Assembly: GCA_000002445.1 (NCBI GenBank) | Contig: CM000208.1 | Span: forward strand, 2,944,001 to 3,008,000 | Source: Trypanosoma brucei | Taxonomy: Eukaryota | Reading direction: 5' to 3' | DNA: 64,000 nucleotides | In this document: piece after piece, positions 22,033 to 22,321 of the stretch | How the letters are laid out: every line of letters starts with the position of its first letter | How positions within the stretch are numbered: the first letter of the stretch is position 1 | Translations under genes and position numbers: made by a program | The notes under the pieces: generated by a model | Databases searched by the model: none | What the model saw: only the letters and a program-made list of their open reading frames with translations | What the model was told of the DNA's origin: nothing

Positions 22033-22186
22033 TATACCACCCAATGAGAGCGTTAGGGAGCTGAATGCCGAGCAGGACGGCACCATCAGCAAAGTGCTGT
22101 AACGCAAACTGGATTATTATGACAATCCACATAACAATCGGCATAGGGCGCCATAGATTCCGCAAAAATATCAGCCAACTGGGTGT
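22033..22186 (-). pseudogene. Second relic fragment (about codons 73-124) of the H+-ATPase gene, upstream of copy A
   Basis: About 155 bp matching 21525-21678 of copy A with 3-4 mismatches. It is followed immediately by a (GTT)7-poly(T) microsatellite at 22187-22212. Confidence 0.75.
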
Positions 22187-22321
22187 TGTTGTTGTTGTTG
22201 TTGTTTTTTTTTTTGCGGAAGCTTGTTGAGTTGTTATTTGAGTATCGTCGCAGTTCTCTTTTGTTTTATTACCATTTTTGTTATTTTGACGGGGTTTTTT
22301 TTGCTGCTTTTACTGTGATTT

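What the first reader, a model, noticed from the sequence alone, without database searches (positions are those of the whole stretch)
22033..22212. Second ATPase fragment upstream of the array, capped by a (GTT)7-poly(T) microsatellite
About 155 bp upstream of copy A match codons ~73-124 of the ATPase (3-4 mismatches) and end abruptly in gttgttgttgttgttgttgtt-T12. The fragment lies between the stop of the upstream 850-aa gene and the ATPase 5'UTR, which is an odd place for coding sequence.
Basis: seen in the sequence. Interest (0 to 1): 0.55.

Follow-up and report, generated by a model that had tools for sequence, protein, structure and literature searches.

The report
ATPase gene relic behind published TbHA2
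The stretch is a real, dead-end leftover of the neighbouring proton-pump gene. It is ordinary as a kind of thing, but it explains where the odd front end of the published third pump gene "TbHA2", absent from reference genomes, comes from.

Summary
Window 22034-22187 (gene sense is the minus strand) matches codons 77-127 of both tandem P-type H+-ATPase genes at 151/154 bases. Copy A is 19133-21895 and copy B is 15445-18183. The fragment lies between the stop of the 850-aa gene and the 5'UTR of copy A.

It does not end at the microsatellite. Homology to codons 64-76 continues in register for 35 nt at 24/35. The (GTT)7-T run is therefore an in-place expansion of the gene's own Lys-Lys-Thr codons.

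The fragment is a truncated, non-coding relic. It is also present in T. b. gambiense and in a third assembly, and absent in T. vivax and T. theileri. Patchy shared variants and a sharp identity step (98% against 69%) point to gene conversion with the live genes.

The main new result concerns the published TbHA2 protein (Q7Z1X2, 905 aa). Its unique first 112 residues are encoded by window 22368 to 22034. That stretch runs through the tail of the 850-aa gene, its 3'UTR, the microsatellite (KKK-TTTTTTT) and this relic. Joining the relic to copy A across the 154-bp repeat deletes 519 bp. With one added base, it reproduces TbHA2 except for 4 residues.

TbHA2 is therefore a relic-HA3 recombinant. 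Whether it is a natural deletion allele or a cloning chimera is unresolved.

The parts
22034..22187 (-). High-identity ATPase relic ('frag2'), equivalent to codons 77-127 (TM1-TM2 region) of the H+-ATPase genes
   Evidence: It matches copy A (21515-21668) and copy B (17803-17956) at 151/154. tblastn with HA3 residues 77-128 gives E = 1e-25. All three differences are non-synonymous: G89R, L95M and A120P.
22185..22214 (.). Microsatellite: (GTT)7 plus T9 on the + strand, read as A11-(AAC/ACA)n on the coding strand
   Evidence: Found by TRF and read directly. It replaces the gene's GAAAAGAAAACA (E-K-K-T). It is read as KKK-TTTTTTT in published TbHA2. The poly(A) part is 4 nt shorter in T. b. gambiense.
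22215..22242 (-). Degenerate continuation of the relic, equivalent to about codons 64-73
   Evidence: The in-register alignment of 22208-22242 with 21669-21703 is 24/35. None of 20000 shuffles reached the anchored score. The identity step against frag2 is significant: 11/35 versus 3/154 differences, Fisher p = 5e-7.
22243..22368 (-). Rest of the TbHA2-specific 5' reading frame. The ATG is at 22366-22368, inside the last 15 codons of the 850-aa CDS in another frame, and the frame then runs through that gene's 3'UTR
   Evidence: tblastn of the TbHA2 N-terminus: residues 1-24 match 22368-22297 at 23/24, and residues 23-112 match 22303-22034 at 85/90 in a frame shifted by one base. In this window the frame from the ATG stops after 44 codons.
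21896..22033 (-). Leader of copy A (HA3). It holds a polypyrimidine tract (CTCGTTTCTTCCCTTCCC) followed by AG. Positions 21896-22005 are shared with copy B
   Evidence: A/B homology runs to 22005 = 18293. The junction and sequence were read. Its role as splice acceptor is inferred from the general rule for trypanosome trans-splicing, not measured.
21515..21668 (-). Homologous stretch inside copy A. It is the partner of frag2 in a 154-bp direct repeat with 519-bp spacing
   Evidence: Crossing over here reproduces TbHA2.
19133..21895 (-). H+-ATPase copy A (920 aa), identical to TREU927 XP_823456.1 / TbHA3
   Evidence: ORF, Pfam domains, exact identity to P0133.
15445..18183 (-). H+-ATPase copy B (912 aa), identical to TREU927 XP_823455.1 (TbHA1 type)
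12337..12655 (-). Downstream relic ('frag1'), equivalent to codons 119-224. It lies 2.8 kb past copy B and 450 nt before the kinesin gene, and overlaps frag2 by 27 bp of gene coordinate
   Evidence: It matches 21223-21541 at 318/319. tblastn gives E = 2e-59. Both of its boundaries are sharp. It is also present in T. b. gambiense.
22322..24874 (-). Upstream 850-aa conserved hypothetical gene. Its 3'UTR most likely contains the relic
   Evidence: ORF. No Pfam hit. Syntenic orthologues occur across Trypanosoma. The extent of the 3'UTR is inferred, not measured.

Best explanation
**What it is.** Window 22034-22242 (minus strand) is a relic of a P-type (P3A) H+-ATPase gene, truncated at both ends and non-coding. 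It covers about codons 64-127. It sits in the spacer, most likely the 3'UTR, of the upstream 850-aa gene, 138 nt ahead of the start of the first live ATPase gene (HA3).

**The microsatellite.** It is not a cap. It is an in-place slippage expansion of the gene's own Lys-Lys-Thr codons.

**Why part of it looks young.**
- The 154 bp on the gene-proximal side are kept 98-99% identical to the live genes by gene conversion.
- The part beyond the microsatellite has drifted to about 69% identity.
- The simple repeat probably blocks the conversion tract (inferred).

**What it does.** It makes no protein here. The upstream ATG frame is broken, and the relic's frame runs into the HA3 leader and stops.

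**Its consequence is recombinational.**
- With HA3 it forms a 154-bp direct repeat with 519-bp spacing.
- An exchange across that repeat deletes the HA3 leader and codons 1-76.
- The exchange fuses the tail and 3'UTR of the 850-aa gene, the microsatellite and the relic to the HA3 body.
- That fusion is the published 'third' pump gene TbHA2 (905 aa).
- TbHA2 is therefore an HA3-derived recombinant, not a separate locus. A diploid heterozygous for the deletion would yield HA1, HA2 and HA3 clones.

**Shown and inferred.**
- Shown: the homologies, the junctions, the match to TbHA2, and conservation in three assemblies.
- Inferred: gene conversion, 3'UTR membership, and whether the TbHA2 exchange happened in the parasite or in the tube.
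For: **The repeat and its position.**

**Extension past the microsatellite.**
- The in-register extension is 24/35, with 0 of 20000 shuffles reaching its score.
- The identity step has p = 5e-7.

**Independent assemblies.**
- The same relic, microsatellite and junction to the HA3 leader are present in GCA_001457755.2.
- They are also present in T. b. gambiense DAL972, although that genome has only one ATPase gene.

**Mosaic variants between relic and genes.**
- At repeat positions 38/56/131/142 the bases are as follows:
  - Window relic: C A C C.
  - Window genes: G T G C.
  - T. b. gambiense relic: G A G C.
  - T. b. gambiense gene: G T G T.
  - GCA_001457755.2, both copies: C A G C.
- frag1 also tracks the gene type of its own genome.

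**Lineage.** There is no relic in T. vivax or T. theileri, so it is specific to this lineage among the species available.

**The link to TbHA2.**
- The TbHA2 N-terminus aligns to 22368-22034, including KKK-T7 and the relic-specific R89 and M95.
- The virtual recombinant is 3236 - 519 + 1 = 2718 nt, or 905 codons plus stop. It differs from Q7Z1X2 at 4 residues only.

**Literature.** Three pumps were cloned from strain 427 29-13, but only two genes are in the TREU927 and 427 genomes and one in T. b. gambiense. The same review says gene fragments are common at such loci (PMC6884021).
Against: **Gene conversion rests on few sites.**
- It is inferred from 4 variable sites and one identity step.
- The copy in GCA_001457755.2 that carries relic-type bases sits at the very end of a short-read contig and could be a mis-assembly.

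**The degenerate extension is only 35 nt.**

**The TbHA2 reconstruction needs adjustments.** It needs one extra base and four substitutions in an A-rich run relative to this window. The source allele was therefore not identical to this one.

**No independent TbHA2-type sequence was found.**
- No independent TbHA2-type fusion was found in the protein collection.
- No contig is on record for TbHA2.
- An in-vitro chimera therefore cannot be excluded.

**The original paper (Luo et al. 2006) could not be read**.

**The origin of the relic is not established.**
Confidence: 0.85

Rival explanations
1. TbHA2 is a natural allele. In some T. brucei lines, unequal exchange or single-strand annealing between the relic and HA3 has deleted 519 bp on one chromosome 10 homologue. 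This gives a pump with a replaced, lysine/threonine-rich N-terminus. This is a sub-hypothesis of the best explanation: the event happened in vivo.
For: - A 154-bp direct repeat at 98% identity is a plausible substrate for homologous recombination.
- Exchange at this locus demonstrably happens. T. b. gambiense has a single A/B chimeric gene.
- The TbHA2 upstream part carries its own differences, at residues 19, 26, 30 and 35, and an open frame. This is as expected for a different natural allele. The same A-rich run also differs in T. b. gambiense.
- TbHA2 has A120, like the relic of GCA_001457755.2, and not P120 as in this window.
- TbHA2 is reported to complement yeast (PMC6884021).
- A short polypyrimidine tract plus AG lies about 35 nt upstream of ATG 22368.
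Against: - None of the three assemblies available has the deletion.
- No second TbHA2-type protein is in the collection.
- The deletion would remove HA3's own polypyrimidine/AG leader, and the new start codon lies inside another gene's CDS.
Confidence: 0.4
2. TbHA2 is an artefact of cloning or assembly. Possible routes are PCR template jumping, recombination in E. coli, or in-silico collapse of early shotgun reads across the 154-bp repeat. The relic then has no known recombinant in the parasite.
For: - The TbHA2 body is identical to HA3 at every residue after the repeat.
- The junction lies inside a perfect repeat, which is where polymerases jump.
- Reference genomes of TREU927 and 427 hold two genes only (PMC6884021).
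- No contig is on record for the TbHA2 protein, and no independent fusion was found.
Against: - The frame-restoring base and the four substitutions in the upstream part are not what a jump on a TREU927-like template would give.
- Per the review, TbHA2 was used in localisation, complementation and RNAi experiments. None of these proves a genomic origin.
Confidence: 0.4
3. Origin model. The two relics are the halves of one old ATPase copy (codons about 64-224). It was split when the present two-gene cassette (12656-22033) was inserted at a staggered break, duplicating 27 bp.
For: - frag2 ends at gene coordinate 21515 and frag1 starts at 21541. The same 27 nt (ATACCACCCAATGAGAGCGTTAGCGAG) closes one and opens the other, in the same orientation, on either side of the array.
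- By my rough estimate, two independent fragments of a 2.76-kb gene would abut this closely about 2% of the time.
- The three junctions are sharp, with no residual homology, as expected for illegitimate joins.
- T. vivax has one ATPase between the same two neighbours.
Against: - A 27-bp target duplication around a 9.4-kb insert has no known mechanism in trypanosomes.
- It also needs two further deletions at the outer ends.
- A simpler route to frag2 alone is a 519-bp tandem duplication of leader plus codons 1-127, followed by loss of its 5' part. That route explains the spacing exactly and makes the overlap a coincidence.
- No outgroup with an unsplit relic was available.
Confidence: 0.3
4. 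The fragment is a retroposed (processed) copy, and its A/T run is the remnant of a poly(A) tail.
For: A homopolymer run abuts the fragment.
Against: - On the sense strand the A-run lies 5' of the fragment, not 3'.
- Homology to the gene continues on the other side of it.
- The run occupies exactly the place of the gene's own AAAAGAAAACA.
- There are no flanking target-site repeats around the fragment.
Confidence: 0.02
5. The stretch is a functional RNA element or a small coding gene, not a relic.
For: It is conserved in three T. brucei-group assemblies. A perfect 11-bp inverted repeat flanks the microsatellite.
Against: - There is no Rfam match: the best is E = 0.16, at 14 bits against a threshold of 95.
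- Folding is no better than shuffles (z = -1.4).
- The frame has no start codon before M91-equivalent and stops 10 codons after the relic.
- All three substitutions are non-synonymous.
- The assemblies are too close (98-99%) for conservation to mean constraint.
Confidence: 0.03

Closest known systems
TbHA2 (T. brucei P-type H+-ATPase 2; GenBank AAM55480.1, UniProt Q7Z1X2; Luo, Fang and Docampo 2006, cited through PMC6884021)
   Same: The first 112 residues are encoded here, at 22368-22034. They include the KKK-T7 tract (the microsatellite) and the relic-specific R89 and M95. A recombinant built from this window differs from TbHA2 at 4 of 905 residues.
   Different: In this window, in T. b. gambiense and in GCA_001457755.2, the reading frame is broken upstream. 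After codon 127-equivalent the sequence runs into the HA3 leader, not into the ATPase body. No complete TbHA2 gene exists in these assemblies.
Gene fragments and pseudogenes at tandem P-type ATPase loci of trypanosomatids (review PMC6884021)
   Same: It is a partial copy of the array gene lying next to the array. The review notes such fragments at the H+-ATPase and Ca2+-ATPase loci and reads them as traces of former copies.
   Different: This fragment is not in phase with the array: the offset is 519 bp against a period of 3712 bp. It is kept near-identical to the live genes over only part of its length. It can also be tied to a specific published recombinant.
AQP2/AQP3 chimeras of T. brucei chromosome 10 (PMC7473772)
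   Same: Recombination between neighbouring paralogous sequences creates chimeric or deleted transporter genes in laboratory lines and patient isolates. The T. b. gambiense A/B chimeric ATPase and TbHA2 are the same kind of product.
   Different: For AQP2/3 both partners are complete genes and the in-vivo origin and drug-resistance phenotype are proven. Here one partner is a 154-bp relic, and neither in-vivo origin nor phenotype is shown.
Processed (retroposed) pseudogenes
   Same: A short piece of coding sequence next to an A-run, in a non-coding place.
   Different: The A-run is on the wrong side, lies within the homology, and derives from the gene's own codons. There is no target-site duplication.

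Membership tests
Functional P3A-type H+-ATPase gene | Complete open reading frame with a start codon, the phosphorylation motif DKTGT and ten membrane spans (about 900 aa) | tested here: not met
   Only residues 77-127 (TM1-TM2) are present at high identity, plus about 13 degenerate codons. The frame stops 10 codons after the relic, and the upstream ATG frame stops after 44 codons.
Gene relic / unprocessed pseudogene fragment | Significant nucleotide homology to a parent gene in the same genome | tested here: met
   151/154 identical, E = 6e-72. Zero matches expected by chance.
Gene relic / unprocessed pseudogene fragment | Truncated, with no usable reading frame | tested here: met
   Sharp 3' junction to the HA3 leader, a decayed 5' part, and stops and a frameshift.
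Gene relic / unprocessed pseudogene fragment | Substitution pattern without coding constraint | tested here: inconclusive
   All 3 differences are non-synonymous, but three sites are too few. Gene conversion also resets the count.
Terminal partial unit of a tandem array | Lies one array period from its homologue, in phase with the repeat unit | tested here: not met
   Spacing to copy A is 519 bp, while the array period is 3712 bp.
Processed pseudogene (retroposition) | Poly(A) at the 3' end of the sense strand and flanking target-site duplication | tested here: not met
   The A-run is 5' of the fragment on the sense strand and interrupts continuing homology. No flanking duplication was found.
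TbHA2 gene as published | Unique 61-residue N-terminus followed by PSWLIFLRNLWRPMPIVMW | tested here: met
   tblastn gives 23/24 plus 85/90 identities at 22368-22034.
TbHA2 gene as published | That N-terminus continuous with a full ATPase body in one reading frame in the genome | tested here: not met
   In the window, L001 and L005 the relic is followed by the HA3 leader, and the upstream frame is shifted. Continuity appears only after a virtual 519-bp deletion plus 1 nt.
Sequence under gene conversion with paralogues | Variants shared in patches between the copies within genomes, and an identity discontinuity along the homology | tested here: met
   A mosaic of 4 sites across three genomes, and 2% against 31% divergence on the two sides of the microsatellite, p = 5e-7. 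The sample is small and one assembly is possibly unreliable.
Cis-spliced exon | GT...AG boundaries compatible with joining the relic to HA3 | tested here: not met
   There is no AG|GT in the shared stretch from codon 96 to 127, where the join must lie (read from the sequence). Cis-splicing is in any case very rare in trypanosomes (general knowledge).

The most novel reading that the evidence does not exclude
The relic is a live recombination partner of the proton-pump genes in natural T. brucei populations. It donates its R89/M95 variants to full-length pumps, as the GCA_001457755.2 contig may show. By a 519-bp deletion it also produces TbHA2-type alleles. In these alleles the conserved N-terminal 76 residues of HA3 are replaced by a translated piece of the neighbouring gene's tail and 3'UTR. 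Such alleles would change pump dosage or regulation, and with it the proton-motive force that pentamidine uptake depends on.
Probability: 0.25. Interest if true: 0.55.

Novelty: new member of a known kind. Interest (0 to 1): 0.4.

Why it matters
**As a sequence feature it is ordinary.** Leftovers of array genes are common next to trypanosomatid tandem arrays.

**It settles a bookkeeping problem.**
- Three H+-ATPases (TbHA1-3) are described in the literature.
- The TREU927 and Lister 427 genomes hold two genes, and the T. b. gambiense genome holds one (PMC6884021).
- TbHA2 is not a missing locus. It is the HA3 body joined to this relic.
- Its "unique N-terminus" is a translated piece of the neighbouring gene's end, its 3'UTR and a microsatellite.

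**It affects how older TbHA2 experiments should be read.**
- Any probe or RNAi fragment aimed at the TbHA2-specific 5' part would target the 850-aa gene's transcript region, not a pump. This is an inference.

**It is relevant to drug work.**
- Knock-down of HA1-3 lowers pentamidine susceptibility about 8-fold (PMC6071061).
- Copy number and recombinant alleles at this locus are therefore worth typing.

Tried and rejected
**Readings rejected.**
- **Chance similarity.** Rejected.
- **In-phase end of the array.** Rejected: the spacing is 519 bp, against an array period of 3712 bp.
- **Retroposed copy with a poly(A) tail.** Rejected on orientation and on the homology that continues past the run.
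- **Cis-spliced exon.** Rejected: there is no AG|GT in the stretch where the join must lie.
- **Structured or known RNA.** Rfam found nothing real, folding gave z = -1.4, and there are no tRNAs.

**Searches that found nothing more.**
- **Further decayed ATPase remnants.** Local and anchored alignments of the other three relic flanks show nothing above shuffles. tblastn with the whole pump finds only the two genes and the two relics.
- **The same relic in other species.** There is none in T. vivax or T. theileri. The T. rangeli 'partial ATPase' is only a contig end. No DNA was available for T. congolense.
- **Independent TbHA2-type fusions.** The last protein search found none, with only 21 candidates scored.

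**Look-ups that failed.**
- Exact look-ups of copy A, copy B and P0133 returned no contig.
- The Logan contig L004 stops at the end of the 850-aa gene.
- Luo et al. 2006 is not held in the library. How TbHA2 was cloned could therefore not be checked.

Full report
**Setting**

All genes in this part of the window run on the minus strand. In gene order they are:

| Feature | Coordinates |
|---|---|
| DnaJ/CSL gene | 25070-25570 |
| 850-aa conserved hypothetical gene | 22322-24874 |
| P-type H+-ATPase copy A (920 aa) | 19133-21895 |
| P-type H+-ATPase copy B (912 aa) | 15445-18183 |
| Kinesin | 8480-11887 |

- Copy A is residue-for-residue the TREU927 protein XP_823456.1 (TbHA3). Copy B is XP_823455.1 (TbHA1 type). 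The window is therefore the chromosome 10 H+-ATPase locus of T. brucei brucei TREU927, or something indistinguishable from it.
- The two genes share 98.1% identity from 110 nt upstream of the ATG to about 27 codons before the stop (19214-22005 = 15502-18293).
- Their C-termini and 3' flanks are unrelated.

**The observation**

- The repeat finder and blastn give a 154-nt direct repeat in three copies: 22034-22187, 21515-21668 (in A) and 17803-17956 (in B). The first differs from the other two at 3 positions.
- A 74-nt core occurs three times, against none in 100 shuffles.
- In gene terms the repeat is the last base of codon 76 plus codons 77-127, which is the TM1-TM2 region.
- The three differences are G89R, L95M and A120P. 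All change the amino acid.
- The microsatellite on the + strand is (GTT)7 at 22185-22205, then nine more T up to 22214.

**The microsatellite is inside the relic, not at its end**

- On the coding strand the gene reads ...GAGCTGCCGG-AAAAGAAAACA-CCCAGTTGG.
- The fragment reads ...AAGCTTCCGC-A11(CAA)6CA-CCCAGTTGG.
- Past the repeat, 22208-22242 aligns in register with 21669-21703 (codons 64-76) at 24/35.
- An anchored-extension score of 13 was never reached in 20000 shuffles, where the maximum was 12.
- The simple repeat is therefore a slippage expansion of the gene's own Lys-Lys-Thr codons, and the relic spans roughly codons 64-127.
- Identity drops from 151/154 on one side to 24/35 on the other (Fisher p = 5e-7).
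- The other three relic boundaries are sharp, with nothing above shuffles beyond them. These are the frag2 3' end at 22033/22034 and both ends of the downstream relic.

**A second relic, and an unexplained overlap**

- Window 12337-12655 equals 21223-21541 at 318/319, which is codons 119-224. It lies 2.8 kb past copy B.
- The last 27 nt of frag2 and the first 27 nt of frag1, in gene order, are the same piece of the gene (21515-21541).
- This suggests that one old copy was split by insertion of the present cassette with a 27-bp duplication.
- A 519-bp tandem duplication of leader plus codons 1-127, followed by 5' loss, explains frag2 alone equally well.
- I could not discriminate between the two. 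I give the split model about 0.3.

**Other genomes**

| Genome (locus) | Arrangement |
|---|---|
| GCA_001457755.2, contig CZPT02001512.1 (L001) | Same relic, same microsatellite length, same junction to the HA3 leader |
| T. b. gambiense DAL972 (L005) | One ATPase, an A/B chimera; both relics kept; relic has one mismatch to the genes; poly(A) tract 4 nt shorter; (AAC)7 unchanged |
| T. vivax (L002) | One ATPase between the same neighbours, no relic |
| T. theileri (L003) | At least three ATPases, no relic |
| T. rangeli (L006) | The 'partial ATPase' is a contig end |

From memory, GCA_001457755.2 is T. equiperdum OVI. No T. congolense DNA could be reached.

**Evidence for sequence exchange**

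At the four variable positions of the 154-nt repeat the bases are:

| Copy | Bases at positions 38/56/131/142 |
|---|---|
| Window relic | C A C C |
| Window genes | G T G C |
| T. b. gambiense relic | G A G C |
| T. b. gambiense gene | G T G T |
| GCA_001457755.2, both copies | C A G C |

- frag1 carries the A-type base at its variable site in the window and the B-type base in T. b. gambiense. In each case it matches the resident gene.
- A relic that predates the brucei/gambiense split stays within 1-3 differences of the genes, while its far side is 31% diverged. Gene conversion limited by the microsatellite is the best reading of this.
- Caveat: there are few sites. The GCA_001457755.2 gene copy also lies at the very end of a short-read contig and may be mis-phased.

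**The link to TbHA2**

- Aligning the cluster members of the T. brucei pumps shows that published TbHA2 (AAM55480.1 / Q7Z1X2, 905 aa) equals HA3 everywhere except at its start.
- That start reads MTYGLPRNHSLEKKHKNHGKSSKKKNRQNKKNGNNTKENCDDTQITTQQASAKKKTTTTTTTPSWLIFLRNLWRPMPIVMW...
- tblastn places residues 1-24 at window 22368-22297 (23/24). It places residues 23-112 at 22303-22034 (85/90), one frame over.
- The start codon lies inside the last codons of the 850-aa CDS, in another frame.
- The frame then crosses that gene's 3'UTR. The microsatellite gives KKK-T7, and the relic gives PSW...GWY with its private R89 and M95.
- The arithmetic fits. The stretch 22368 to 19133 is 3236 nt. Removing the 519-bp repeat spacing and adding one base in the A8C4 run gives 2718 nt, which is 905 codons plus stop.
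- The virtual recombinant differs from Q7Z1X2 at residues 19, 26, 30 and 35 only.
- In the window the upstream frame stops after 44 codons, and the relic frame ends ...GWYRNKEIQIR* in the HA3 leader. T. b. gambiense is also out of frame.
- There is no AG|GT in the stretch where the join must lie, so splicing is not the explanation.

**What TbHA2 then is**

- It is a recombinant between the relic and HA3 across the 154-bp repeat.
- One possibility is a natural deletion allele. A heterozygote would yield HA1, HA2 and HA3 clones without three tandem genes.
- The other possibility is a PCR, cloning or read-assembly chimera.
- For a natural allele:
  - Exchange clearly occurs at this locus, as the T. 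b. gambiense chimera shows.
  - The TbHA2 upstream part has its own variants.
- For an artefact:
  - No assembly has the fusion.
  - No second such protein exists in the collection.
  - The deletion would remove HA3's polypyrimidine/AG leader.
- I rate the two about equal. The original paper was not available.

**Function**

- I found no sign of an RNA element or of a translatable frame.
- By the usual spacing rule for trypanosome polyadenylation relative to the downstream polypyrimidine tract, the relic probably forms the end of the 850-aa gene's 3'UTR. This rests on general knowledge and was not measured.

**Comparison and verdict**

- The kind of thing, a gene fragment beside a tandem ATPase array, is already noted for trypanosomatids (PMC6884021).
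- Chimeras between neighbouring transporter genes are well known for AQP2/3 on the same chromosome (PMC7473772).
- Three things are new here:
  - the exact anatomy of the relic;
  - the in-place origin of the microsatellite;
  - the explanation of TbHA2.
- HA1-3 knock-down changes pentamidine susceptibility about 8-fold (PMC6071061), so alleles at this locus are worth typing.
- Interest is moderate to low (0.4), and the novelty class is a new member of a known kind.

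Noticed in passing
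window 12337-12655: A downstream ATPase relic (codons 119-224) matches copy A at 318/319. It sits in the 3.5-kb spacer between copy B and the kinesin gene. It shares 27 bp of gene coordinate with the upstream relic, which hints at a common origin.
   Followed up: partly
L005 10001-12739 (T. b. gambiense DAL972, FN554973.1): The single H+-ATPase of T. b. gambiense is an A/B chimera. It has L49 and H615 as in HA3, while the remaining variable sites and the C-terminus are as in HA1. This is what unequal exchange between the two tandem genes would produce. Both relics survive beside it.
   Followed up: partly
L001 12254-12407 (GCA_001457755.2, CZPT02001512.1): In this assembly the full-length gene copy next to the relic carries the relic-type bases at codons 89 and 95 (Arg, Met). 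Either the relic has converted the gene or the short-read contig end is mis-phased.
   Followed up: no
window 22166-22176 and 22211-22221: A perfect 11-bp inverted repeat (TTCCGCAAAAA / TTTTTGCGGAA on the coding strand) brackets the microsatellite. It is only 7/9 complementary in the live genes. A hairpin with the repeat in its loop might have favoured slippage.
   Followed up: no
window 15445-15501 versus 19133-19213, and the flanks 12656-15444 versus 18294-19132: Homology between the two ATPase genes stops about 20-27 codons before the stop codons. The C-termini (912 and 920 aa) and the whole 3' flanks are unrelated, so the duplication unit ends inside the coding sequence.
   Followed up: no
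window about 50000-57600: A 7.6-kb stretch has no long ORFs, only 32-38% G+C, and is packed with AT, AAC/CAA, A-rich and T-rich microsatellites. It lies between two minus-strand genes and is unlike the rest of the window (45-53% G+C).
   Followed up: no
window 37978-38631: A 138-bp unit is repeated 4.7 times at 97% identity inside the 933-aa ORF 35851-38652. It encodes a repetitive, charged protein segment.
   Followed up: no
window 22290-22305; L005 about 9595-9612: The A8C4 run in the 3'UTR of the 850-aa gene differs in length and sequence between the window, T. b. gambiense (+2 nt) and the TbHA2 clone (+1 nt). It decides whether the upstream ATG frame reaches the relic.
   Followed up: partly
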